The notes under the pieces are model-generated. The model did no database searches. It saw only the letters and a program-made list of their open reading frames with translations, and had not been told where the DNA came from. Below are positions 2,895 through 35,028 of a stretch of DNA of 35,807 nt, one piece after another. The DNA lies in IMG/VR virus record IMGVR_UViG_3300046778_000250, positions 1 to 35,807 of that record. One strand, written 5' to 3'. The position numbers and the translations under genes were made by a program. Origin of the DNA: a virus (taxonomy: Duplodnaviria; Caudoviricetes). Within the stretch, counting starts at the first letter, position 1, and every line of letters begins with the position of its first letter.

Positions 2895-2962
2895 TTTTGG
2901 GGGTAAAGCTGGGGTAAGACTAATATTTAGCACCTCAAATCTTCACCAATAAACACTCTCTT

Positions 2963-3009
2963 TTTCATTGGTAATGAAGAGGTCATGAGTTCAAGCCTCA
3001 TTGAGGGCT
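2963..3009 (+). other. attP: attP core: 3' half of tRNA-Thr(GGT)
   Basis: Anticodon arm TTCA-TTGGTAA-TGAA, variable loop AGGTC, T arm ATGAG-TTCAAGC-CTCAT, acceptor 3' strand TGAGGGC-T; no D arm or 5' acceptor strand; lies just upstream of the integrase. Confidence 0.85.
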
Positions 3010-3016
3010 TACCATC

Positions 3017-3140: not shown

Positions 3141-4256
3141 TTGATGCCCAAAACTCCAAAAGGCAGTGTGGCGATCAAGGTTAGTAATGATCGGCTGCAA
3201 CTAGTCTACAGATATCTGGGTAGGCGGACTTACCTTTCGCTCGGACTGCCAGACAGCAAGACAAATCGCACCTATGCTCAGTCGATTGCATCTAAAATCC
3301 AAATGGATATGCTCAGTGGCAACTATGACACCACTCAGAGTAACTATAAAGAATTTCAATCTGAGCCTAAAGCAGAGAGATTCAAGCGAATTGAATTGCT
3401 CGAATTATGGGACAAATATGTGGAGTATAAACGCCCTCAGGTATCGCTAAATACCATTGCCAATACTTACCGACAAGTCGAACGATGGCTCAAGAGGATG
3501 CCATATAAATCGGTGGATGATGCGGTCAAAGTTCGGGATTACTTACTGAAGGAAAGCACCCCATATTCGACGCGCAGAATCATCAATCAGCTAAATGGTT
3601 GCTGTCAGTGGGCGATTAAATCCAAGCTACTAGATTGCAATCCTTTCGCAGGATTAGCGAAAGGATTGATTGTGAAACAAAAGGGTGAAATCGAATATTT
3701 CACCGAATCCGAACGTTCCCGCATCATTGAATATTTCAAGCTTCACAACATGCATTACGCACCATTCGTAGAGTTCATGTTTCGGACTGGGTGCCGACCT
3801 TCAGAAGCCCTGGCGTTGCAGTGGGGTGATATTTCGGATGGATGCGACCGAATCTTGTTCAGTCGATCGCTCACTGCCAACGAGTACGGTAGTAAAGTCA
3901 CTGTCAAAGAAGGTCTTAAAACCCAATCAAGTCGATCGATTAGCTGTGGTAAAACACTGATAGTATTTCTGAAATTGATTAGGCATGAGGATTGGGAAGC
4001 TCAAGATTTACTATTCCCCAGTCCTCATGGCAAGCATATCAATCTGCCCAACTTCACCGATCGCCACTGGAAACCAGCACTCAAACAGTTAGCACTCAAG
4101 TATCGCTCTTTTTACAAAGTTCGCCACACCGCCATTACCCATGCACTAGACACCCTCGATGCTAAGGATGTAGCTGCGTTGGTGGGGAATTCAGCAGATG
4201 TGATTTATAGAAATTATGCTGGGATAAAAGAGGGATTGACTACCCCAGATTTCTAA
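3141..4256 (+). CDS. int: Tyrosine recombinase / phage integrase with N-terminal arm-binding domain (ATG at 3144)
   Basis: RLQLVY...LSLGLPD arm domain; TGCRPSEALAL, LKT, YKVRHT, LVGNS...IYRNY catalytic motifs. Confidence 0.95.
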   Translation: MMPKTPKGSVAIKVSNDRLQLVYRYLGRRTYLSLGLPDSKTNRTYAQSIASKIQMDMLSGNYDTTQSNYKEFQSEPKAERFKRIELLELWDKYVEYKRPQVSLNTIANTYRQVERWLKRMPYKSVDDAVKVRDYLLKESTPYSTRRIINQLNGCCQWAIKSKLLDCNPFAGLAKGLIVKQKGEIEYFTESERSRIIEYFKLHNMHYAPFVEFMFRTGCRPSEALALQWGDISDGCDRILFSRSLTANEYGSKVTVKEGLKTQSSRSISCGKTLIVFLKLIRHEDWEAQDLLFPSPHGKHINLPNFTDRHWKPALKQLALKYRSFYKVRHTAITHALDTLDAKDVAALVGNSADVIYRNYAGIKEGLTTPDF

Positions 4257-5008
4257 CCTTCCAGAGCTTTTTGGATTGTCCCACCGATCGCTCGTTGCCA
4301 CTTTTGATCGGCAACCTTTTGGAGTCGATCAAACCGCTCGATCGTTTTGTCAGCAATCTTCAATTCTGCTACGGTGAATACTCCCGCTTTCTTTTGGTCT
4401 TGGATGTCTTGGGGTACACGAGCATTTCGCAGAGTCATGTACAGTTTGACATATTGGTCGTTGGTCAACGCACCGATTTTCGCTACTAGTGTTGGACTGA
4501 TACCATCGGTCAAAACTGCAAATTCGGCAGTCGATACACTGCCAGGATTGATCAGTGCATCCCGAATTTCTGATAATTGCTTGCTGTGCAGCGAGTCAAA
4601 GCTATCAGCCGCGATAACTTGTGCTTCTGCGGTGATAACTTCCGCTTCTCGTGCTTTGGTGGCAAAGTAGTGTTTTGCCGCCTTAACCTCTGGTTTACCG
4701 CGACTATCGCAAGCTAACGCAATATGATAGCAAGCAATCCGAGATAATTTGTAATCTTGTAATGGGACTGGATTCCTTGCTGTGGACAATTTACTAGTAG
4801 AAGTAAGGTGTCCTGTAATATCTTCGATGGCTGATTCCAGATTTTCAACGCCGATTTCAATAGCATTCTCGAACATCTGCCACTTGCTGTATCCGAGAAT
4901 CTTCTGCAATTCTCGCGCAAACCAGTATTCTTGCCCGTTTTCATTCGTGTGACGTATAGAATCGAACGGAGACTCACCGCTCGGAGCGGCTTTGGTGATA
5001 GTATTCAT
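4253..5008 (-). CDS. BRO-N/DinD-family DNA-binding protein (antirepressor-like)
   Basis: FDSIRH...EYWFARELQKILGY.KW..F...I...DYKLSR.ACY.IA...D..K.EV.AAK.YFA. Confidence 0.85.
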   Translation of the reverse strand: MNTITKAAPSGESPFDSIRHTNENGQEYWFARELQKILGYSKWQMFENAIEIGVENLESAIEDITGHLTSTSKLSTARNPVPLQDYKLSRIACYHIALACDSRGKPEVKAAKHYFATKAREAEVITAEAQVIAADSFDSLHSKQLSEIRDALINPGSVSTAEFAVLTDGISPTLVAKIGALTNDQYVKLYMTLRNARVPQDIQDQKKAGVFTVAELKIADKTIERFDRLQKVADQKWQRAIGGTIQKALEG

Positions 5009-5101
5009 ATTGTGTTGTCCTATTGATACTAGGTTGATACCGCCGATGGGGATTCGAGTGTTTCAGCACTCTCCCGCGATCGGCATAATATTATTGTATC
5101 A
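5009..5101 (-). promoter_or_regulatory. Extended -10 promoter plus structured 5' leader, copy A
   Basis: TGATACAAT, then GCCGAT-CGC-GGGA-GAGTG-CTGAAA-CACTC-GAA-TCCC-C-ATCGGC and CCTA-N7-TAGG; homologous to 14809-14896. Confidence 0.8.
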
Positions 5102-5145
5102 TTCTTGCTAATACCGTCTCTAGGCTGTTTAACACAGACTTCTAA

Positions 5146-5499
5146 TTATTTAGTAGGTGTACTGACGCTCGGTGAATAATTCGCACCAGGGCGGATGACT
5201 AATGGTACGACGACAGCCAAGATTGCGGCTAGTAACGAAGCCCAAACGATCCAGGTCTGAGAGTGGGTCATTTGCCTTTGTGCCAATCGCTCGTCTTTCT
5301 CCTCTTCGGCATCTTTATCGATTCGATCAAGACGAGAATGAATCACCATCAGCCGTCCTTCGATTGCCGCAACATTTTGGGATAATTCTTTAGTATCGAT
5401 CGTCGTCTCTTTCAGACCTTCAACAACGATCCTGATTAATTTTTCGTTAGTGGCGAGTAATGCGCGGATTTCGAGCAATGGATTGTCTGTATGGTTCAT
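5146..5499 (-). CDS. Coiled-coil protein with C-terminal transmembrane helix (possible lysis accessory)
   Basis: Heptad-rich N-terminus; WIVWASLLAAILAVVVPLVI hydrophobic segment. Confidence 0.6.
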   Translation of the reverse strand: MNHTDNPLLEIRALLATNEKLIRIVVEGLKETTIDTKELSQNVAAIEGRLMVIHSRLDRIDKDAEEEKDERLAQRQMTHSQTWIVWASLLAAILAVVVPLVIRPGANYSPSVSTPTK

Positions 5500-5690
5500 T
5501 TATCTTGGTTAGACGATCGATTGCTCTGATTGCTAGTGTGTATTGCTGCTCAGATATTGCCAACAGTGATTCAATTTTACTAGATAGTTGGGTGATAGGG
5601 GATGAAGACATTTCGCTATAGCCATTACGATGTCTTCAGTCTATGTCTGTATAGCAACTATTTCTGTTTGTTTAACAAAGATTTTACCGA

Positions 5691-7112
5691 TTATATCCAC
5701 CCACGCATTTGGCTACCAGTATTTACCCTACTATTGCTGGCACGTACCTCGATTTCTACTACAGGGGTAATAGCGGCGTTGCAAGCTAGCAGGAATGCCC
5801 AAACAACGTCGCCATGCCCAGAATTGTCTCTAGCCGCTTGAAAGCGAACGTTACCACCCGCTGAGACTACCCGTTGCAGCTTCCTGAAATCCGCACCAAT
5901 TTCTGGGTGATCTTGAGGTAACAACACCCGCCGCTCGGTCATCAGTTCTAAGCCAAGTGTAGCCATATTGCCCTTGGTATCGGTGGTGAAATTCACGCCC
6001 TCTACTTTTGAGCCATAGAGATTTTGATATTCTTCTGTAGACCTTTCTCCCATGCCAGTCCTGTCGATCGCCATGCGGATTACGTTATATTTTGCGAATA
6101 GTCGAGCGATTTGTCGATCGTGTTCTGCGAAGGACGATCGATCTAACACCACCACCTCACGGGTAATTAGTTCACCAGTGTAGTAGCTAATCTTTTGACC
6201 GTTCGCTCTCTCTTCGTAGTGGATGCCGAAATCTTCAGTGGCTTCTAATACGAATGCACACCACTTGTCATGCCTCAGCCCTACGTCATTCCCAATGAAG
6301 CAGCGACCACGATTGTAGCCATGACCCACGGCTGAGGCTCTAGCATCTTCGCAAGCAGCAATCAGTTCGGAGCTAAACCAGGTATTGGGAGAGTCGCTCC
6401 ATTCTAAGAGCATTTCGCTCTTAAAGCTGAATGGATCGGCAGCCGCGCGTTCTGATTCGAGGTCATATACCCTGCCATCAGCGATCGCGCGGTGGATGTC
6501 TGCCCAGTGGTGAGACCAAAGAGGTTTTCCCCGCACCACTGCGGTATTATGCATTATTTTGCGGAAGATGTTCTCGCTGCCTCCAATCGGAGTGCTAGCA
6601 ACAATCAATTTCAGTCGCCCACGAGTTGTGTGCTGCGCTGCGTTGAAGAACTCTTGACCTTGAGGGAAGAAGGCTAACTCGTCAAGGAAGCAATTGCTAG
6701 TGTACCCCCTTACAGCCGATGGAGATGCGGAGAGTGCGATTACCTGACTCGATCGACCTAACCTTAGTCTGTAACGGGTATAGCGAATTAAACCCTCCTC
6801 CGTCCGCACCTCCACTTCTTCCTCAATAATGTTGAGCGCAACCGCTGTTTGGTATATAACTTTAGACCATGCCTCGACTAGCCTGAGAGCTTCTTGAGCT
6901 TGCGGTGCAGATGCCGATACTATCAGCCAGTCCGATCGCTTGCCGTTCGCTTCATTGTCGAAAATGCCAAGAGCGATCTTGAGTGCGGTAATCTTTGACT
7001 TCCCACAGCCACGCGCCCAGCAAACTGCTATGAAGCGACTGTCATCCTTCAGATAATCTTTCTGGAATTGCCAAAAATTTACGCCTAGCGATGGGAGCGT
7101 GGTATTAGCCAT
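5691..7112 (-). CDS. terL: Terminase large subunit (Mu gp28-like)
   Basis: Walker A WARGCGKS, Walker B CFLDE, ASTP coupling motif, nuclease motifs IGNDVG, AIDRTGMG, GHGD. Confidence 0.93.
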   Translation of the reverse strand: MANTTLPSLGVNFWQFQKDYLKDDSRFIAVCWARGCGKSKITALKIALGIFDNEANGKRSDWLIVSASAPQAQEALRLVEAWSKVIYQTAVALNIIEEEVEVRTEEGLIRYTRYRLRLGRSSQVIALSASPSAVRGYTSNCFLDELAFFPQGQEFFNAAQHTTRGRLKLIVASTPIGGSENIFRKIMHNTAVVRGKPLWSHHWADIHRAIADGRVYDLESERAAADPFSFKSEMLLEWSDSPNTWFSSELIAACEDARASAVGHGYNRGRCFIGNDVGLRHDKWCAFVLEATEDFGIHYEERANGQKISYYTGELITREVVVLDRSSFAEHDRQIARLFAKYNVIRMAIDRTGMGERSTEEYQNLYGSKVEGVNFTTDTKGNMATLGLELMTERRVLLPQDHPEIGADFRKLQRVVSAGGNVRFQAARDNSGHGDVVWAFLLACNAAITPVVEIEVRASNSRVNTGSQMRGWI

Positions 7113-7758
7113 TTTTCGTGTTTGGAGTAGTGAACGCTTTTTCTACCGACCATCCGCGTTGAACTCTGTGCAATAAGCCAATATACTTTATTTTCAGTTT
7201 TGGCTCCAGAATTTCATGCCATGCAGAAAGGCATTTAGTCTCCCCCCTCCACTCTATGACAAGATTATCGGTTCTGTTCCGTTGATTCTCTTTATGCGTA
7301 GCCCATCGGCAATTATCAGGAGAATACCCTTTAGAGTTATCAATACGATCGATCTGATATTGAAAGCCTGGGGCTTCTCCCATGTCTGAGCGGAAGTTCT
7401 CGAAAGAAGCCAGCCATCGGTCGCAGATAACGACATTCTTATAGCAATCTTGTTTAGGTCGAGCAACCCTATCTTTCATGGTAATCCAAGCTCTGTACTC
7501 GCGAGGCATCTCCGATCGGCTTCTTTGTTTACTAACGCTTTGCCCGTGAGTTGTTAGCCGCTTTACATTGGTTTCAGGAATCAAACACCCGCATGATTTC
7601 GTTTTTCCCGATCTTAGACTGCTCGACTGAACAGTTGTTTTTTTGCCGCACTTGCATTGGCAATTCCATCTAACAGCTTGGTGGTTGCCGTTCTCCGCTC
7701 GATCTATCACAGTCAATCGACCAAAGGTGTTTCCCGTCAAGTCTACAAAAGTTCCCAT
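7105..7758 (-). CDS. Free-standing HNH-type homing endonuclease between terS and terL
   Basis: DLTG..FGRLTVI...W.CQC.CG...SCGC N-terminal domain; IDRIDNSKGYSPDNCRWAT..NQRNR nuclease motif. Confidence 0.85.
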   Translation of the reverse strand: MGTFVDLTGNTFGRLTVIDRAENGNHQAVRWNCQCKCGKKTTVQSSSLRSGKTKSCGCLIPETNVKRLTTHGQSVSKQRSRSEMPREYRAWITMKDRVARPKQDCYKNVVICDRWLASFENFRSDMGEAPGFQYQIDRIDNSKGYSPDNCRWATHKENQRNRTDNLVIEWRGETKCLSAWHEILEPKLKIKYIGLLHRVQRGWSVEKAFTTPNTKNG

Positions 7759-7800
7759 CGTGTTAAAATACCGTTGCTAGATTATTTGCTTAGTAACATT

Positions 7801-7849
7801 ATTCTAGCACGAAACCCACCCCATGATTCAGTCATACGGCGGGTTTCGT
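7801..7849 (-). promoter_or_regulatory. Hairpin plus extended -10 upstream of the HNH gene
   Basis: ACGAAACCC...GGGTTTCGT inverted repeat at 7809-7849; TGCTAGAAT at 7809-7801. Confidence 0.6.
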
Positions 7850-7860
7850 CGTTTGATCAG

Positions 7861-8418
7861 TTATTCCATCCCCAATACCTCACGTCTCATTCGATCCATA
7901 AATTCAGGCGAGATGCCTTGTCCAGTAGCCTCGGCTTGGAGTTCGTTCATCCGTGCCTCTTGTTTGGCTCGGATATCGGCTGCATGTTTGGCAATAGTGA
8001 GAGTAGCCACATCCGATCGACTGACACCACCTAGTATTCGGCTAACTGTCTCCAGTCGTCGGAGAAACCCATTTATGTCTGAGTCAGCATCTAATGTCTC
8101 GCTCTCACTGACGATCTGAACCAGAGCGCGATACGAAGCGACCTGAACTAATCCAGTCAGCATCTTAGCAACTGTGCCCTCGTCATCTGGCAGCTCATAT
8201 CCATAAGCGGTTGCAAAGTTATGGATAACTCTCAGTTTGCTGGTTTGAGCTTTGAGATTTTTGGAATAGTCACCGATCGCATCTTTGCTGACCGGATGCC
8301 CTTGTTCTGCTAGCCAATCGGCTAATATCTGATATCCACCGAACCCCTGTTCGATTAGCTTGCGATCGAACTCAGCTCTGATTTTCTTTGGTAGTAGATC
8401 GACTTTTAAAACTGCCAT
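7861..8418 (-). CDS. terS: Terminase small subunit (Mu gp27/DUF3486-like)
   Basis: KVDLLP...FGGYQ.LADWL...G..VSK.AI.DY and C-terminal GISPE...R.R.EVLG. Confidence 0.8.
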   Translation of the reverse strand: MAVLKVDLLPKKIRAEFDRKLIEQGFGGYQILADWLAEQGHPVSKDAIGDYSKNLKAQTSKLRVIHNFATAYGYELPDDEGTVAKMLTGLVQVASYRALVQIVSESETLDADSDINGFLRRLETVSRILGGVSRSDVATLTIAKHAADIRAKQEARMNELQAEATGQGISPEFMDRMRREVLGME

Positions 8419-8446
8419 TATGAGCCATTATGAGCTATTATGAGCC
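8417..8446. repeat. 3 x 10-bp tandem repeat ATTATGAGC(C/T)
   Basis: Units at 8417, 8427 and 8437 make up the whole holin-terS spacer. Confidence 0.9.
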
Positions 8447-8652
8447 TATTCCCCTTCCGTTGCATCACTTGCCCCTTCAGAGCTGTTGTAGCCGTCGCTG
8501 GGAGGCTTTAAGAAGTATCCCACTATTGCCATCATAAACCCCACATTACCCTTGTCAACATTGATGACCTTTGGGAGCATCGAACCCACTGCCAGATAGA
8601 GAAATGTGATGGTTCCAAACAATCTGGCAAAAAAGGCATTGCTAAGTTTCAT
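8446..8652 (-). CDS. Small two-TM membrane protein, holin candidate
   Basis: 68 aa, two hydrophobic segments, polar tail; upstream of terS. Confidence 0.55.
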   Translation of the reverse strand: MKLSNAFFARLFGTITFLYLAVGSMLPKVINVDKGNVGFMMAIVGYFLKPPSDGYNSSEGASDATEGE

Positions 8653-8741
8653 CCTTCCAAATAATCCCTGATAATGTCCACAATTTCAACCATATCATCA
8701 TCATCCACACCCAAGAACGGACGAGTAGATTGGTTGGGCTT
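8649..8741 (-). pseudogene. Displaced original 3' end of the gpG-like gene
   Basis: Reads KPNQSTRPFLGVDDDDMVEIVDIIRDYLEG*; 16/27 identical to the C-terminus of 9374..9814; its TGA overlaps the holin ATG. Confidence 0.9.
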
Positions 8742-8742
8742 A

Positions 8743-8836
8743 AAACCATAAAACCCGCTATCTGACTGAGTTCTAGACAACGGAATTATGATATAATTGA
8801 TGTATCTTACGCAAACAATTATATAGAGATTCTATC
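8743..8836 (+). promoter_or_regulatory. Conserved 94-bp HNH-cassette end with promoter, copy 1
   Basis: 87/94 ungapped identity to 11621-11714; extended -10 TGATATAAT at 8789-8797. Confidence 0.85.
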
Positions 8837-9385
8837 ATGATGGTTGAAACTTGGCTTCCGGTAAATGGCTATGAGGGGATTTATGAGGTCAGTAACTTAG
8901 GTCGGGTGAGATCGCTCGATCGAATAGCTATTACTATCACTGGTCGCCCTAGCCCAAGAAAAGGGAGAAACCTAGTCCTTGCTTTGGGTAAACATGGGTA
9001 CCCAGTAGTAACTCTGTGCAACAAAACACAAAAAATGTTTTCAGTACATAGGTTGGTTGCGATAGCATTTATTCCTAATCCTGAGAACAAACCCAGCGTA
9101 AACCATATTGATGGGGATAAAGCAAATAACTCTGTAAATAACTTGGAATGGGTTACGGCATCAGAGAACACAAAACACGCATATGCCAACAACTTAATGG
9201 CTATACCGAAGGGTGAAAAGCATTACAACTCTAAGCTAACGCCAGAGCTTGTTCTGAGAATAAAGAGTTTGAGCAAAGCAGGCCATAGTTCGCCAGTCAT
9301 AGTGTCAATACTAGGTATTGACATAACCGAGCGCGGTATTCGCAAGGTTTTAAACGGTAAAAGTTGGAAACACTTATTGAACTAG
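8837..9385 (+). CDS. NUMOD4-HNH homing endonuclease, antisense to the head operon
   Basis: ETW.[17 protein letters not shown] (NUMOD4); VHRLVA.AFIPNP...[8 protein letters not shown].NN...NLEWVT..EN (HNH); C-terminal HTH ending GKSWKHL. Confidence 0.93.
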   Translation: [182 protein letters not shown]

Positions 9386-9814
9386 ATAGTCTTTGACAAT
9401 TTCTACTATCTCTTCTCTGTCCTCATCGTCCAGTCCTAAGAATGTCCGAGTGTTTTGGGCAAAGAAAGAGTAGAAAATATTAGTACCGATCGCCACACTT
9501 TGATTAGTGGCTTGATAAGTAATCGAGTCTCTTAGGGAAAAAGTATCCTTCAGGATAGCTGAAGGTTCGGCATTGGTGCGATATGGAACCCCCGTGCGTT
9601 TGCGGCGTGCCTTAGCCTTAATAGTAGCCTCTGAGAGACTTTTCCAGGCTGTACCATCAGGGGAAACTTCTTGATCGAACCTGCGTCGGACTTTGCGGAG
9701 TGAATACTCCCCGATGTCGTTGAAAGCAGGCTTTAAATTATTGAGCTTGGCAGTGAGTTCAGAAATGCCGCCTTGGAGTTGGGTATCATCGATGACGATT
9801 TTGATTTGAGTCAC
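9374..9814 (-). CDS. Phage virion morphogenesis protein (Mu gpG-like)
   Basis: RRFDQEVSPDGTAW..LS, IL.DT..LRDSI, IGTN..Y, R.FLG. Confidence 0.88.
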   Translation of the reverse strand: MTQIKIVIDDTQLQGGISELTAKLNNLKPAFNDIGEYSLRKVRRRFDQEVSPDGTAWKSLSEATIKAKARRKRTGVPYRTNAEPSAILKDTFSLRDSITYQATNQSVAIGTNIFYSFFAQNTRTFLGLDDEDREEIVEIVKDYLVQ

Positions 9815-10083
9815 GAGATCACACCTTCGGGTAGTGGTTTGATCGGTAGATCGAGGATCTCTTGTCCCTCGGTTACTCGATATTTTTTCTTACCTACAAT
9901 CAGAGCGTGAATCGCATCACATGGACATGGAGAATCGCCAACATAATGCCCAAACATTCCAAATTGGTTAGGTAGCCATTGAGCTAAATCCTGATAGTCT
10001 CCAGCCCATGTCGCGGCTCCATGTTTATCGGGTTTATCACTGTTGATCGATAGCACTGCATTCTCAATTTCGATTTTAATCAT
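9811..10083 (-). CDS. Small protein coupled to MuF, candidate immunity protein
   Basis: 90 aa; 4-nt overlaps with both neighbours; immunity role inferred from position only. Confidence 0.55.
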   Translation of the reverse strand: MIKIEIENAVLSINSDKPDKHGAATWAGDYQDLAQWLPNQFGMFGHYVGDSPCPCDAIHALIVGKKKYRVTEGQEILDLPIKPLPEGVIS

Positions 10084-11594
10084 TTTCGGATATATCTCAT
10101 TATTAATCTGAAGTGTTCTGGGTCTACTCTGTAGAGATCTACTAGTTTATCTGGATCCGCGAATGCTTGTAATCCCATTGAATAAACCTCGGTAATCCCT
10201 TGCCCGTATAACTTGCCAACGTAGGGATCAATAAAGCTATCAGGGTGAGCCTTTTCTTCGGCTCCATAACCATTATTACCAGTCAGTTGAGATAGCGGTG
10301 TGATTTCACCAGTAGCTCGATCTTTCACCCAGTTCTCAGCATCCACCCCTGCTGATTTGTCCTGGTATTCGCAATGGTGAGCCATCTCATGGAACTGGGT
10401 GATTTTCCTAAACACAGGCGATCGCCCATCGACCAAATGAACGATCCCATTTTTAAGGTCAGCATTAGCTCTGTCATCACCAAACTGGAAAGATTTAATC
10501 ATCGTTGGTTTATCCACAAGCTGACAGAAATCGATCGCAGATTTAAACGTTGCATCCCGATCGGTCGAGCTTGCCTTCTCAACCATCATTCCCGCCACTT
10601 CTTTTTCAGCTCGATCTCGATCGCCCATTTGAGTCAAATCGTGGATAAACTTTTCGGCAACATCTTTATAAGTTGCCGAGCCAAATTCCATGTCATGCTC
10701 AAATTGTTGAGTGAGTTCATAGATATCGCTAGCACGTTCCAGCCGTGATTTAGTCACTGGTGCGTCCTGTTTGTCCGCTCGATGCCAGCGACTGTTTTGC
10801 AGGATCTGATTGCTCCCGTTGCGACGGCGAGTAGTGCCCTCAGGTAGCTTAAATTCAGCCTGTGAGTCGCCCTCTACTAATTTACGGATATCTGGGTCTA
10901 AATTCTTGAGTAGCTCCTCTCGTCGCTCTTTGGTGAGCTTTCCAGGTTTCCAGTCGAAGCCAGGGTCAGGCTCTAACTTTGATACTATTGGCTGTCCAGT
11001 CCTCGGATCGACCATCTCGATCTCGTCGCCACGCTGGAGATCGCTAACCTCTAGATTCTCTCGGTTTAGGTCGCGATCGGACAAACTGAAAACGGTACAG
11101 CGACAGCCAAACCCGTGAGGCCAGAACGGTAATTTGTCTGCGGGAAACACCTTCCCATCTAAGGCAAGGTGAGTTGGTCGAGGCACAGAACTATTACCAT
11201 GCCTTATTTGCCAATATGGGCGAGATTTAAGCGTAGACGGTTCAGTCATCTGTGAGTATCGACCAAATTTATAACTCTGCCTAATATTCATGTCATAAAT
11301 AAGCTGACTTCTCCACGCCCGATCTCCTTTTAACTGCCAGTTATCAACATAAGCATCCGCAATGGCATTGAACCGTTTAGCAAAGTCAGCAATCGAAATT
11401 CCATCGTTAATCGCAGCATCAACCGCATCTCTGAGTTCCTGGAGAATTTGACCCTTTGCCCCTGCTGATGTAAATGCGACTTGAGAAATAAGCCCTTGCC
11501 CCTCTACCCACGAATCTGTGTCAATCCCGATTTTGTCGGCAAAGTATTCTATCGCTTCCTTAAACGGCAACTGAGTTGGGTTTACATCAGGCAT
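10080..11594 (-). CDS. MuF (gpF) head morphogenesis protein with C-terminal HExxH metallopeptidase-like extension
   Basis: LPFKEAIEYF, RPYWQ...RPTHLALDG...P.GFGCRCTV, PDPGFD (MuF); later FHEMAHHCE and TEVYSMG. Confidence 0.85.
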   Translation of the reverse strand: MPDVNPTQLPFKEAIEYFADKIGIDTDSWVEGQGLISQVAFTSAGAKGQILQELRDAVDAAINDGISIADFAKRFNAIADAYVDNWQLKGDRAWRSQLIYDMNIRQSYKFGRYSQMTEPSTLKSRPYWQIRHGNSSVPRPTHLALDGKVFPADKLPFWPHGFGCRCTVFSLSDRDLNRENLEVSDLQRGDEIEMVDPRTGQPIVSKLEPDPGFDWKPGKLTKERREELLKNLDPDIRKLVEGDSQAEFKLPEGTTRRRNGSNQILQNSRWHRADKQDAPVTKSRLERASDIYELTQQFEHDMEFGSATYKDVAEKFIHDLTQMGDRDRAEKEVAGMMVEKASSTDRDATFKSAIDFCQLVDKPTMIKSFQFGDDRANADLKNGIVHLVDGRSPVFRKITQFHEMAHHCEYQDKSAGVDAENWVKDRATGEITPLSQLTGNNGYGAEEKAHPDSFIDPYVGKLYGQGITEVYSMGLQAFADPDKLVDLYRVDPEHFRLIMRYIRK

Positions 11595-11620
11595 TTTGAC
11601 CTCTTATCTTAACTACCATT

Positions 11621-11714
11621 AAACCATAAAACCCGCTATCTGACTGAGGTCTAGACGACGGGATTATGATATAATCGATGTATCTTACGCAAACAATTAT
11701 ACAGAGATTTTAAC
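11621..11714 (+). promoter_or_regulatory. Conserved 94-bp HNH-cassette end with promoter, copy 2
   Basis: 87/94 identity to 8743-8836; TGATATAAT at 11667-11675. Confidence 0.85.
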
Positions 11715-12259
11715 ATGGCAAAGGAGATCTGGAAACCAGTCGTAGGGCTTGAAAATTCCTATCGAGTCAGCAATTTAGGAAGGGTTAAATCGATCAATCG
11801 CATGGTCGCCGCCAGTCAAGGAGGAGGGCAAACGCCAAAAGCTGGGCGTTTGCTTATACTCTCCGTAAACAGACAGGGATACAAGTATGTAGGCCTTTGT
11901 GAGAACGGGAAAAGAAGAACGCTCAAAGTTCATAGATTAGTTGCTATCGCTTTATCCCTAATAATGAAGGTAAGCCATACGTTAATCATATCGACGGGGT
12001 TAAGTCAAACAACAAGGTAGGCAATCTAGAATGGGTGACGGCTCAAGAAAATAGCCTTCATGCTTACAGGGCTGGGCTGTGCAAAGCCATTCAAGGAGTC
12101 GATCAACATGCGGCAAAACTAACGCCAGAGCTTATTCAAAAAGCGAAAGATCTACGGAAGTTAGGGCAATCCTACGAAAAAATAGGAAAGGCAATCGGAG
12201 TGAGCAATGCCGCCGCCCATTCCGCACTGACAGGCAAGACTTGGAAACACCTGCTTTAA
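11715..12259 (+). pseudogene. NUMOD4-HNH endonuclease with a 1-nt frameshift
   Basis: Adding one T to the run at 11951-11953 restores [42 protein letters not shown]...GKTWKHLL, collinear with 8837..9385. Confidence 0.88.
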
Positions 12260-12260
12260 C

Positions 12261-13937
12261 CTAGACACCATTCCTAGCTGCGAGGTATCCAGACATTCCA
12301 GCGACCGTGCTAGCGTCTAGCATAGCGGCTTTAAACTCGGTTGCCGATAAGTCTGGGTAAGAGTCACCTAGCTTCTCTCTGAATTCCATCAAATTCTTAG
12401 AATCGCTCAACAAATCCCTAATCGTGGTGAACCACTCAGTAAAGGTAGCATCGCCGATTGGTTTGAGTTGGGTGAGGATGGGATCGATTGGGTCGGGTTG
12501 CTCGGAGAATTGTGCCGCCACATCATCCAGTGATTGAGCTGATTGCTTTGAAGTCTGAGGGTTGGGAACTGGGGGTTCTCCTGGAACTTGACCTTCACCA
12601 CTTGTCGCATCTCCCAAATTACTAGTAATCGCCGCCACTGCTGTTTCAGTCAAGCTCGGCAGTGCGCCATTAATTAGTCCTGTGACTAGCTCAGAACTCC
12701 ACCCTCCAGCCTTGGCTTGACTAACGATGTTGATTAGCGCGTTTGCCTGTTCCCCATTCAACTGTGGGCTATCATCGCGCTCAGGAATTAGATAATCCTC
12801 ACCGTATCTAGCTGCAATCGCTTCGGGTTTGAGTGAGATTCCCAATCCTTGTAACTTAGTATCGGTATCTGCTAACACTCCCAAGTCAGGAGCGGCTTCA
12901 AGTTTTCGGCGCACCTGGGGATAAGCCGCCCCTGGATAATTCCAGTCGGTCAGCCATCTTGCGACACTATTATTGAACGATTCACACAACAAATCAGCGT
13001 CGGATTCAATGATAGAATCGGCTACGTTTTCGTGTACTTCTGCTTGAGAACGACTGCTGCCATTGTCGGTAGTCATTGTTTGGGACAAGATGATTTTAGC
13101 GATCGACGCATCCATCTGGTCGCACAGTGATTTATAGTCAACTGTGCCATTACGAGCGGATTCTAGGAACTCAATCACCAGCCCTTCTGGAATCATAAAC
13201 CTGTCATCTTGCCCAAAGTTACCGAGGGCATCCCACAAGACGTTTTTCTGCTCATTGGAGGTACCAGCGGGATAGGTGCCCTTACGTGCGGGTGAGGCGA
13301 ATAGTTCCAAGAATCGCATCCACCAGCGGATACCGTTGCGCTTGAAGAATGTGGGCCAATACAGCCAGTGACCCAACCCGCGACCGTATGGCTCATCATC
13401 GTGATCTGCACCAACGGAGAAGTGCCAAAACTTGCGCTCTGGCAATGCTTCACCCAGCGGCTCGTTGAAGGTTTTGAGCCTTAGCTTTTGGTCGATATCA
13501 AAATGGAACCGCCGTCTATCCCGCACCTTGATGTCAGCAATACAAACTTTCCCATCTTGCCTCTCCCAGATTACCTCAGCCGCACTAAACCCATATAGCA
13601 GACCCCACAACATTTTCTCATTACAGTCGTCCCAAGCAATGTTTTTAAGCTGTTCTGAGAGGTGATCGGCTGCTTGTTTGTCGATGCGCTTTTCACCACC
13701 TGGAACTACTTCCCACTCCTTAGAAGTAACCGCACGGAATCGCTGCTGAAGACAAGACTTAACCTGGTCATCCTGAGCAACTTGTTCATAGAGAATGAGG
13801 TCTCCACCACTTTTGAGGTTGAGCAGGCTGTCTTGGGGAGGGAGATAGTTGGCGAGTGCAGTTACCCAGCCACGGGTATAATCTCGACCAGATTTTATAC
13901 CCGCGTATTCTATTAGTGAAACTTTGGTGTCTGGCAA
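12261..13937 (-). CDS. Portal protein (Mu gp29/DUF935-like)
   Basis: LYEQV..D..V.SCLQQR, GFSAAEVIW, PYGRGLG..LYWP.FFK, W..FLE.F..P, SRSQAEVHE. Confidence 0.93.
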   Translation of the reverse strand: MPDTKVSLIEYAGIKSGRDYTRGWVTALANYLPPQDSLLNLKSGGDLILYEQVAQDDQVKSCLQQRFRAVTSKEWEVVPGGEKRIDKQAADHLSEQLKNIAWDDCNEKMLWGLLYGFSAAEVIWERQDGKVCIADIKVRDRRRFHFDIDQKLRLKTFNEPLGEALPERKFWHFSVGADHDDEPYGRGLGHWLYWPTFFKRNGIRWWMRFLELFASPARKGTYPAGTSNEQKNVLWDALGNFGQDDRFMIPEGLVIEFLESARNGTVDYKSLCDQMDASIAKIILSQTMTTDNGSSRSQAEVHENVADSIIESDADLLCESFNNSVARWLTDWNYPGAAYPQVRRKLEAAPDLGVLADTDTKLQGLGISLKPEAIAARYGEDYLIPERDDSPQLNGEQANALINIVSQAKAGGWSSELVTGLINGALPSLTETAVAAITSNLGDATSGEGQVPGEPPVPNPQTSKQSAQSLDDVAAQFSEQPDPIDPILTQLKPIGDATFTEWFTTIRDLLSDSKNLMEFREKLGDSYPDLSATEFKAAMLDASTVAGMSGYLAARNGV

Positions 13938-13953
13938 TGTTGTTATTCTCTGA

Positions 13954-14808
13954 TTAGTTTTTGAGTGAAAGTAATCCTTTCAAATAGGTTTTAACTGCAC
14001 TCCATTGAACGAATGTAACCATATCGCTATCGACCGCTTTGTTGAAAGCTTCGATACCTCTTGATGCCATTGTCCCGATGTGATTGCCGACTAAAACTAC
14101 TGGCAGTTGATATTCAGCGCAATAATCGATCGCTTGGCAGACATCATCACCTGTTACCTTGCCTCGCTTTAGCTCAATAAAACATTTACCAGGAACCCAG
14201 AGATCCATCCGGTGCTTGATTGTCAAGACTTGATTCTCAGCATCAATGCCCATTGAGTGCATCCAGCGCAAAAGATCTTGTTCTAGGTCTTTCTCTTGCA
14301 CCATCTTTTTCTTGACTGGCTTGGGCTTGGGCTGCTCAAAAGGAGGTACATAAGGTCGCGATACTAGCTGAACGTATTCCAGAGGCTGGCTAATAATATT
14401 CTCTTCCCAAACGTCTACGTACTCTTCATCGTATTCCCAGCGAATCACTAAAGTTAGCTTGCCAAGCTTCTCAGCTAAATTAATATATTCAGCTATCCCT
14501 CGGTCTTCGGAGAAATAGATGCGCCCATGCTGTTGCAAGAGTTCGTTGTTCAACTTAGCGACATCAGCTAGTTTTTGTGTAGACCACACCGTCTTAACAT
14601 TATCCTCTCCAGCACAAATAACACGGCAAAGCACAAATTCAAATGGCTTGACCAAGCCAAAATTACTAGCAACTTCGACCCAATCATGCTCGACAATATA
14701 TTTTCCACAAGCTTCTTCGTTCTTGATCTGTTTTTGCCGCCAAGCAGAAAGGCTGCTTACGAGATCGTCACGCTCTTTCTGTAATTCTTCAATGGTGATA
14801 TTATTCAT
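13954..14808 (-). CDS. Accessory gene with C-terminal PD-(D/E)xK restriction-endonuclease-like domain
   Basis: EKDLE...ENQV...RMDLW....FIELK......VCQAIDY; has its own promoter and leader. Confidence 0.75.
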   Translation of the reverse strand: MNNITIEELQKERDDLVSSLSAWRQKQIKNEEACGKYIVEHDWVEVASNFGLVKPFEFVLCRVICAGEDNVKTVWSTQKLADVAKLNNELLQQHGRIYFSEDRGIAEYINLAEKLGKLTLVIRWEYDEEYVDVWEENIISQPLEYVQLVSRPYVPPFEQPKPKPVKKKMVQEKDLEQDLLRWMHSMGIDAENQVLTIKHRMDLWVPGKCFIELKRGKVTGDDVCQAIDYCAEYQLPVVLVGNHIGTMASRGIEAFNKAVDSDMVTFVQWSAVKTYLKGLLSLKN

Positions 14809-14896
14809 TTGTGTTGCCTATGTGTGTAGGTGATACTGCCCCTGGAGATCCGAGTGTTGAACGCACTCCCTCGCGAGGGGCTTTAATATTGTAACA
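14809..14896 (-). promoter_or_regulatory. Extended -10 promoter plus structured 5' leader, copy B
   Basis: TGTTACAAT, then GCCCCT-CGC-GAGG-GAGTG-CGTTCAA-CACTC-GGA-TCTC-C-AGGGGC and CCTA-N6-TAGG. Confidence 0.8.
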
Positions 14897-34332: not shown

Positions 34333-35028
34333 ATGTCTCAACTTACTTACAAAGAACATCAGATTGACCAGCGAGACGACAACTATGTCAACCTCACCCA
34401 GATGGCAAAAGCAAATAAAGTTCGGCTGAATAACTACTTTTTGTCACCAGAAACCAAAAAGTACCTGAAAGCCGCAGAGGAGAGCCAAAGACTAGATTCT
34501 AGTCAATGCCCACAAACCGCAGCAGAGAGCCAAAGACCCGAATCGGGTCAATGGGACTTGGTGCAGGTTGTAAGCACTAATCGAAGCAAATCGACTTGGG
34601 GACATCCACTAGTTGCGCTGCATTTCGGACAGTGGGTTAGCCCAGAATTTCATGTCTGGTGCAACCGAAACATTCACACATTGATGACAACGGGTAGCGT
34701 CAGCATCGATACCCACATCACACCAGCATCCAAACCATCACTACCATGGGCAAGCGTCGATCCCATCCCTGGTGAAATCGCCCCAATGACCGAACGGGCA
34801 CTCTGTAACCGATTAGTGCGGGAATACGTATTCAATCAATCGAGTGCCCAACCACTGAATGAGCAAGACACCTGGCGGTGGATGTACCGAGAGCTAAAGT
34901 ATCGCCACAAATACGATATCAATGCTCGACACGACGAAACCAAGTACAAAACCAAGCTCGCCCAAATTGAAGCTGACGGGTATCTACCGCAACTTCTCGC
35001 CATCTGCAATTACTTTCTCTCGAACTAA
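34333..35028 (+). CDS. KilA-N domain DNA-binding protein
   Basis: YVNLTQMAKA, TWGHP.VALHFGQWVSPEF.VW. Confidence 0.9.
   Translation: MSQLTYKEHQIDQRDDNYVNLTQMAKANKVRLNNYFLSPETKKYLKAAEESQRLDSSQCPQTAAESQRPESGQWDLVQVVSTNRSKSTWGHPLVALHFGQWVSPEFHVWCNRNIHTLMTTGSVSIDTHITPASKPSLPWASVDPIPGEIAPMTERALCNRLVREYVFNQSSAQPLNEQDTWRWMYRELKYRHKYDINARHDETKYKTKLAQIEADGYLPQLLAICNYFLSN

What the first reader, a model, noticed from the sequence alone, without database searches (positions are those of the whole stretch)
4993..14896. Same covarying structured RNA leader and expression cassette on two unrelated accessory genes
Seen: the BRO/DinD gene (leader 5009-5101) and the PD-(D/E)xK nuclease gene (leader 14809-14896) share a minus-strand module. 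It runs extended -10 TGnTACAAT; stem P1 (GCCGAT/ATCGGC vs GCCCCT/AGGGGC, two compensatory pairs); invariant CGC/C internal loop; P2 (GGGA/TCCC vs GAGG/TCTC, compensatory); GRA bulge; invariant GAGTG/CACTC hairpin with variable loop; GTATCA linker; CCTA-loop-TAGG hairpin over the likely ribosome-binding site; CAACACAA; ATG. Similarity continues for five codons (MNTIT vs MNNIT) and then stops. Inference: structure is under selection, suggesting a cis-regulatory RNA (protein-, antisense- or ligand-controlled translation switch) that moves as a portable cassette and captures different ORFs. I do not recognise it as a named family.
Basis: partly seen in the sequence, partly recalled or inferred. 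Interest (0 to 1): 0.85.

Follow-up and report, generated by a model that had tools for sequence, protein, structure and literature searches.

The report
SymR-type antisense cassette in cyanobacterial phages
Two unrelated accessory genes of this phage start with the same ~110-base cassette, which recurs ahead of many swappable genes in cyanobacterial phages and plasmids and likely makes a small RNA from the opposite strand that would block the gene's ribosome site; published data show such an RNA at a related copy in the lab cyanobacterium Synechocystis.

Summary
The repeat is real and covaries (24-copy alignment: 21 of 26 pairs with two-sided changes). It reads best on the opposite strand, not as a sensing leader. 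The five shared codons hide an extended -10 box on the + strand (4996-5004; 14796-14804). The 'linker' and 'CAACAC' form a G-U-rich hairpin that folds well only on that strand. The predicted products are ~77-nt two-hairpin antisense RNAs (5012-~5088; 14811-~14886) covering the ribosome site, the build of E. coli SymR and plasmid RepX. A model of the family finds a copy before Synechocystis sll7075. Published dRNA-seq shows the mRNA start there (68048; I predicted 68047) and an antisense RNA (67983-68044) that is anti-correlated with the mRNA over 10 conditions (rho -0.83). Its mapped 5' end lies 5-6 nt inside my predicted start. A sister phage (92% identical) keeps the cassette but carries another ORF, with identity ending at codon 5. 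Led genes are Bro-N, KilA-N, Rha, AntA, BstA-like and nuclease. No Rfam family matches. Repression is inferred by analogy to SymR, not shown. Verdict: new cyanobacterial variant of a known kind, testable in Synechocystis.

The parts
5093..5101 (-). Site 1 sense extended -10 box (TG-n-TACAAT); mRNA start predicted near 5086
   Evidence: sequence; start position inferred from spacing
5042..5084 (.). Site 1 long hairpin (P1, conserved internal loop, P2, apical stem-loop 5056-5071): 5' hairpin of the mRNA and predicted 3'/terminator hairpin of the antisense RNA
5012..5040 (+). Site 1 5' hairpin of the predicted antisense RNA, complementary to the ribosome-binding region; its G-U pairs form only on the + strand
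5012..5088 (+). Predicted antisense RNA 1 (~77 nt; ends approximate)
   Evidence: inferred and the Synechocystis copy
4996..5004 (+). Site 1 antisense extended -10 box (TG-n-TAGTAT) inside codons 2-5 of the Bro-N gene
   Evidence: sequence
4253..5008 (-). Bro-N (DinD-like) gene, 251 aa, convergent with the tyrosine integrase gene
   Evidence: PADLOC PDC-S13 E 2.3e-31
14888..14896 (-). Site 2 sense extended -10 box (TG-n-TACAAT); mRNA start predicted near 14882
   Evidence: sequence; start inferred
14838..14881 (.). Site 2 long hairpin (apical stem-loop 14852-14868)
14811..14836 (+). Site 2 5' hairpin of the predicted antisense RNA (11 pairs, 4 of them G-U on + only)
14811..14886 (+). Predicted antisense RNA 2 (~76 nt; ends approximate)
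   Evidence: inferred
14796..14804 (+). Site 2 antisense extended -10 box (TG-n-TATTAT) inside codons 2-5; identity to sister phage L120 ends at 14795
   Evidence: sequence
13954..14808 (-). Predicted PD-(D/E)xK (NucS-like fold) nuclease gene, 284 aa, between the M15 peptidase and portal genes; a Bro-N gene stands here in sister phage L120 (identity resumes at 13945)

Best explanation
Each copy is a portable cassette with two facing promoter-like boxes that likely makes, besides the mRNA, a ~77-nt two-hairpin antisense RNA of the SymR/RepX type, which would pair over the ribosome-binding site and keep the gene off. Shown in sequence: a sense -10 box, a long covarying hairpin, a second hairpin over the ribosome site that folds mainly on the opposite strand, and an opposite-strand -10 box in the first codons. 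Shown in a related copy (Synechocystis sll7075): both transcripts exist and their levels move in opposite directions. Inferred: the long hairpins of mRNA and antisense RNA meet loop to loop, a full duplex blocks ribosome entry and promotes decay, and the long hairpin with its U-rich tail ends the antisense RNA. Also inferred: when the sense promoter wins (growth or prophage induction) the antisense RNA falls and the protein is made. Because the antisense promoter sits in codons 2-5, ORF exchange has to keep those codons, which explains why similarity stops at codon 5. Sequence drift in stems and loops would keep each cassette largely private to its own gene.
For: Antisense TAnnnT in 23 of 24 aligned copies. 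It starts at ORF base +5 (10 copies), +7 (8) or +8 (2), or with no start codon (3), yet stays 6-7 nt before the first G of the antisense hairpin in 18 of 24 by script (20 of 24 reading the alignment). About 11 of 114 other ORFs in the same loci have such a box at +5..+8. 5' hairpin: 48 G-U cells on the antisense strand against 6 on the sense strand; more stable antisense in 24 of 24; shuffle z -3.3 against -1.2. Covariation: 21 of 26 pairs two-sided, 0 of 500 shuffles as high, slid controls 40-45% paired against 92%. Same anatomy as E. coli symE/symR. Model R2 hits pSYSA 67962-68058 at E 4e-9. Kopf 2014 Table S1 lists the mRNA TU7071 starting at 68048 (I had searched for 68047/68046) and the antisense TU7073 at 67983-68044, ending at the foot of the long hairpin. 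Spearman rho -0.83, p 0.003, 10 conditions. ORF swap at codon 5. Cognate pairing -102 and -105 kcal/mol against -25 and -36 crosswise. SymR acts mainly on protein level (PMC1891008 section 5).
Against: The mapped 5' end of TU7073 (67983/67984) is 5-6 nt inside my predicted start (67977/8), and from there the 5' hairpin does not fold; it may be a trimmed end or my start may be wrong. The long hairpin is strand-neutral (15 of 24 favour antisense, mean difference 0.0), so it cannot by itself place the RNA. Copies were found with models that include the promoter columns, and I drew the structure from the antisense strand, so these counts lean my way. In a model-independent test on 90 pattern hits the enrichment was modest (36 against 17 of 74; 6 against 7 of 16 in the comparison group; filter lax, rows redundant). 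In another RNA-seq set TU7073 had baseMean 158 against 3317 for the mRNA, so it is not always in excess. The anti-correlation is of start-site counts and also fits promoter interference. No repression has been measured for any member.
Confidence: 0.8

Rival explanations
1. The antisense promoter matters but the RNA does not: the two convergent promoters, about 90 bases apart, switch each other off by transcriptional interference, and the hairpins only end or stabilise the short transcript.
For: Start-site counts are nearly mutually exclusive (antisense 0 when mRNA 2020; mRNA 0 when antisense 8511), as expected from promoter competition.
Against: Does not need a covarying apical hairpin or loops with a YUNR motif on at least one strand in 24 of 24 copies. 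In SymR the protein effect exceeds the mRNA effect.
Confidence: 0.1
2. A cis-acting 5' leader: a protein (for example the downstream product or a phage or host factor) or a ligand binds the invariant internal loop and opens the ribosome-site hairpin.
For: The internal loop is conserved beyond pairing needs (its 8 columns 22-24 of 24 identical). The long hairpin folds equally on the mRNA strand. The CCTA/TAGG stem partly covers the ribosome site in the mRNA.
Against: Does not explain the opposite-strand -10 box that shifts register, the antisense-only hairpin or the mapped antisense RNA. The led proteins fall in at least 6 unrelated N-terminal groups, so autoregulation by the product is unlikely. 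A binding protein may still act on top of antisense control.
Confidence: 0.07
3. A DNA-level element (operator, cruciform or recombination site) that marks moron slots; RNA structure is incidental.
For: Sits at fixed slots in related phages and borders an ORF exchange. The apical loop is inverted in some copies, as DNA palindromes allow.
Against: G-U pairs conserved on one strand (22 of 24 at one pair) are an RNA feature. Stem sequences vary freely while pairing is kept. Transcripts are mapped at a related copy.
Confidence: 0.03

Closest known systems
SymR antisense RNA / symE of E. coli (Rfam RF01809; PMC1891008, passages and section 5 read)
   Same: 77-nt two-hairpin RNA over the 5' UTR and ribosome site; promoter embedded in the first codons; same apical GTGC-loop-AACAC core and a CTA/TAG stem over the ribosome site.
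   Different: No Rfam symR hit on either window copy at E<=10; R2 scores SymR at only 7.5 bits, E 7.5. Different internal loop. Targets are Bro-N, KilA-N, Rha, AntA, BstA-like and nuclease genes, not SymE. The predicted start lies just upstream of the ATG rather than at +6. LexA control not tested.
RepX / R1162-like plasmid antisense RNA (Rfam RF00043; PMC8136791, passages read)
   Same: 74-75-nt two-stem-loop RNA antisense to a ribosome-binding site of a mobile-element gene.
   Different: Controls plasmid replication genes and binds FinO; no match to the window copies; only a sub-threshold, opposite-strand hit on one look-alike (L037, E 0.013).
P22 sar RNA / ant moron (PMC2629481, passages read; mechanism details recalled)
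   Same: Small antisense RNA controlling an antirepressor gene in an exchangeable moron slot inside the virion-gene region.
   Different: No sequence relation tested; sar works with the Arc and Mnt repressors, for which no counterpart was seen in these cassettes.
PeSL cassettes of T4-type phages RB49/phi1 (PMC2839356, abstract and section 14 read)
   Same: Repeated promoter + stem-loop + Shine-Dalgarno cassettes at which genes are exchanged.
   Different: PeSL stem-loops are terminators placed around a strong early promoter; the section read describes no antisense promoter or antisense RNA.
Synechocystis TU7073 (PMC4195498 Table S1 rows) and possibly sll7075-as1 (PMC3516471 Table 1 passage)
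   Same: Member of the same family by model (E 4e-9); mapped antisense transcript over the sll7075 5' UTR.
   Different: Listed only as a transcript; I found no functional study or family description. Whether sll7075-as1 (11th of the 40 most abundant units) is TU7073 or the other antisense unit TU7072 I could not tell, as no coordinates were seen.

Membership tests
SymR (RF01809) | Score at or above Rfam gathering (61 bits) | tested here: not met
   No symR hit at E<=10 on either copy, none at E<=3 on 20 further loci; the control SymR scored 95.3 bits
SymR (RF01809) | Antisense to a symE (AbrB-fold toxin) gene | tested here: not met
   Led genes are Bro-N and a NucS-like fold; family genes Bro-N, KilA-N, Rha, AntA, BstA-like
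SymR (RF01809) | Remote sequence and structure kinship | tested here: inconclusive
   R3, built from 15 non-cyanobacterial look-alikes without SymR or the window, gave window site 2 E 0.017, site 1 core 0.057, SymR 0.082, next background 0.95, all on the antisense strand. 14 of the 15 were picked by the window's own apical pattern, so the window hits are partly circular; E-values rough
SymR/RepX-type cis-antisense RNA (works like) | Opposite-strand promoter in or at the first codons | tested here: met
   Box in 23 of 24 copies with conserved spacing; promoter activity itself not tested
SymR/RepX-type cis-antisense RNA (works like) | ~75-nt two-hairpin RNA with U-rich 3' tail covering the ribosome site | tested here: met
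   at least 4 U in 8 nt after the hairpin in 21 of 24 antisense against 0 of 24 sense (this stretch is A/T-rich anyway next to the sense -10)
SymR/RepX-type cis-antisense RNA (works like) | The antisense RNA is expressed | tested here: inconclusive
   Shown for the Synechocystis copy, with a 5' end 5-6 nt off the prediction; not testable for the window's own copies with the runs listed
SymR/RepX-type cis-antisense RNA (works like) | Represses translation of the target | not testable with these tools
   Only an anti-correlation of start-site counts
Type I toxin-antitoxin system | Target encodes a toxin whose expression inhibits growth | not testable with these tools
   Targets are 230-350-aa DNA-binding or nuclease proteins; PADLOC PDC-S13 and BstA matches hint at toxicity or defence, untested
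Riboswitch / cis-regulatory leader | Functionally coherent downstream genes and structure specific to the mRNA strand | tested here: not met
   At least 6 unrelated protein groups; the strand-specific hairpin is on the antisense side; no Rfam hit
PeSL cassette | Gene exchange bounded by the cassette | tested here: met
   L120 against the window; one close pair only
PeSL cassette | Stem-loop is a terminator for upstream sense transcription | tested here: not met
   The U-rich tail is on the antisense side, 0 of 24 on the sense side

The most novel reading that the evidence does not exclude
The cassettes form a set of mutually orthogonal RNA locks on phage defence and antirepressor morons, opened by a common trigger: a protein that binds the invariant internal loop, or a growth-state signal. 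ORF-less copies left beside attachment sites in host chromosomes (L310, L312, L314) keep the antisense promoter and would act in trans on matching cassettes of incoming phages, a small-RNA immunity system.
Probability: 0.12. Interest if true: 0.8.

Novelty: new variant of a known kind. Interest (0 to 1): 0.5.

Why it matters
It gives a mechanism and a family for an uncharacterised antisense RNA of the model cyanobacterium Synechocystis, so the claim can be tested with one silent promoter mutation. It shows how temperate phages may carry risky genes (antirepressors, BstA-like proteins, nucleases) in exchangeable slots with a built-in off switch, and why unrelated phage proteins share N-terminal motifs such as M-N-S/N-I: these codons spell an opposite-strand promoter. 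Naturally orthogonal antisense pairs could be useful parts for cyanobacterial engineering. The principle itself is known (SymR, RepX, sar), and this scan has already noted 33 similar cases elsewhere.

Tried and rejected
Rfam: nothing at gathering in the window; only chance hits at E<=10 on both copies and on the Synechocystis copy. BLASTN of cassettes against plasmids and phages: no match. The 3'-half pattern in viral contigs gave 5 stretches, none a member by eye. Loose genome patterns were at background level. R2 across the phylum: 3 of 151 genomes, with only 25 candidates scored per genome, so not a measure of spread. R2 found nothing on 5 of 5 plasmids (Nostoc PCC 7120 alpha, beta, gamma; pSYSM; pSYSX) and matched 3 of 5. 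The model-free antisense -10 test was weak because its stem filter passed 74 of 90 hits. Many Bro-N homologues in Nostocales lack the cassette by eye and by model, so it is not tied to Bro-N. Sequence searches did not name the nuclease. Protein-level selection on the first codons was rejected because the box changes codon frame. Literature: searches found no description of this cyanobacterial family or of TU7073 function; subscription journals are mostly missing. Supplements not seen that may hold exact 5' ends: PMC10939160 (unreadable), file 1 of PMC4195498, files 13-16 of PMC3516471, and the cut part of PMC8682795. MsoT1/MsoA1 of Microcystis (PMC12390103, abstract and outline only) was not compared.
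Full report
Setting. The window is a whole 35.8-kb virus record with a Mu-type portal, a terminase and a tyrosine integrase. The host is likely Chamaesiphon-like: a near-identical cassette lies in a Chamaesiphon genome (L222), and model R1 matched 9 of 39 genomes of that genome's family, one being the training genome.

Observation. Both leaders are as described. The long hairpin spans 5042-5084 and 14838-14881. No Rfam family matches. Only two copies exist in the window.

The family. I collected relatives through the neighbouring and downstream proteins and built models R1 (6 copies) and R2 (24 copies). On the 24-copy alignment 92% of cells pair and 21 of 26 pairs change on both sides; 0 of 500 shuffles reach this and slid controls pair 40-45%. 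RNAalifold recovers 22 pairs on its own, 19 with two-sided changes. The alignment was fitted to the model and the sequences are related, so these are upper bounds. R2 also matches plasmids of Calothrix PCC 6303, Calothrix NIES-4101 and Gloeothece PCC 7424 and Synechocystis pSYSA. One Chamaesiphon prophage contig carries five copies.

It is a cassette. The led genes are Bro-N (two kinds), KilA-N, Rha, AntA, BstA-like and the nuclease; 21 led proteins fell into 6 groups by N-terminal BLASTP. Sister phage L120 is 92% identical to the window up to position 14795, carries a Bro-N gene where the window has the nuclease, and rejoins at the portal start, 13945. Phages L137, L138 and L309 have a cassette at the same slot, and L136 has one at the integrase-side slot. 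Four nuclease homologues carry a shorter two-hairpin variant. Many Bro-N homologues have none.

It reads on the opposite strand. First, the shared codons spell TG-n-TAGTAT and TG-n-TATTAT on the + strand. A TAnnnT box is present in 23 of 24 copies (13 of 24 with the TG extension). It begins at ORF base +5, +7 or +8, so in different codon frames, but stays 6-7 nt before the first G of a hairpin in 18 of 24 by script (two more by the alignment; two had no anchor, one gave 10 nt, one lacks the box). About 11 of 114 other ORFs have a box at these offsets. That is sigma-70 spacing (established knowledge) and is not explained by protein selection. The long hairpin is strand-neutral, as expected if both RNAs use it. 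Third, a U-rich tail follows the long hairpin on the antisense side only (21 against 0 of 24), though that stretch is A/T-rich in any case. Fourth, E. coli symE/symR has the same build and apical core, with its promoter inside the ORF (PMC1891008).

Transcript evidence from a relative. R2 matches the 5' end of Synechocystis sll7075. From the two boxes I predicted starts at 68047 (-) and 67977/8 (+) and searched for these numbers. Kopf 2014 Table S1 gives the mRNA start at 68048 and an antisense unit TU7073 at 67983-68044, whose 3' end is the foot of the long hairpin. Start-site counts over 10 conditions are anti-correlated (rho -0.83, p 0.003): antisense high in stationary phase, heat, darkness and low CO2, and 0 in exponential phase, when the mRNA peaks. 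Against my reading, the mapped 5' end is 5-6 nt inside the prediction and would lose the 5' hairpin, and in a second data set the antisense unit is far below the mRNA. An 'sll7075-as1' is among the 40 most abundant units in a microarray study, but I could not tie it to TU7073.

Mechanism. Shown: anatomy, covariation, strand asymmetry, one close ORF exchange, and two opposed transcripts at a related copy. Inferred: loop-loop contact (a YUNR motif, recalled as typical of antisense loops, is on at least one strand in 24 of 24), full duplex over the ribosome site, translational block, and release when the sense promoter dominates. Cognate pairs are far more stable than crossed pairs in co-folding, so each gene would have its own lock. 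The invariant internal loop is not explained and may bind a protein.

Comparison. It works like SymR and RepX but is not an Rfam member of either. The apical core recurs in about 210 IMG/VR stretches by the tool's estimate, many by chance. Of 15 look-alikes that I picked by eye, two matched symR below threshold, and of 11 led ORFs scanned three are HNH and one LAGLIDADG endonucleases. A model from those 15 ranks the window copies and SymR above background, weakly. Earlier notes of this scan report 33 SymR-like cases in other genomes; these are unchecked and not independent support. None came up for this sequence or for Synechocystis sll7075.

Verdict. A real element: a cyanobacterial, uncatalogued variant of the SymR/RepX-type antisense cassette, directly testable in Synechocystis. 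Confidence 0.8, interest 0.5.

Noticed in passing
L310:156-262, L312:1501-1605, L314:1501-1605, L311:1501-1602, L318:1501-1602: Cassette copies with no long ORF behind them; they keep both hairpins and the antisense -10. In L310, L312 and L314 the copy lies about 150 nt before a stretch matching window 2961-3011. They may lead a gene only after excision, or act in trans.
   Followed up: partly
window 2960-3015: Looks like the 3' half of a tRNA-Thr(GGT) just before the integrase gene: likely attachment core. The matching stretch in L136 scores as a partial tRNA, E 1.9.
   Followed up: partly
L348:1437-2477 (Synechocystis sll7075): Called Cas6-2b in the literature, but it matches BstA-like and HTH profiles, no Cas6 family in Pfam or PHROGs, and is 47% identical to a prophage cassette-led protein over 178 aa. 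PADLOC notes its C-terminal HTH is often fused to Cas6. The label may be wrong.
   Followed up: partly
window 8750-8836 and 11630-11714: The two NUMOD4/HNH-type genes share a second, different upstream module with an extended -10 box and a further opposite-strand box at the start codon; possibly another antisense cassette.
   Followed up: no
L136:1940-1955, L138:1940-1955; also L322, L315: The apical loop is inverted relative to the window copies, so the loop type sits on the mRNA in some copies and on the antisense RNA in others.
   Followed up: partly
window 11715-12259: The second NUMOD4/HNH-like gene is in two ORFs (11715-12020 and 12035-12259), probably a broken copy.
   Followed up: no
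window 34333-35028: KilA-N gene without the cassette, translationally adjacent to the upstream ORF, although it has an opposite-strand TAnnnT at +8.
   Followed up: partly
L334:2712-3746 (Calothrix PCC 6303 plasmid): The cassette leads a KilA-N/ParB fusion just after a parAB pair.
   Followed up: no
P0001-P0070, P0121-P0155: N-termini of both unrelated protein families often read N/D-S/N-I-x, consistent with an opposite-strand -10 box.
   Followed up: partly
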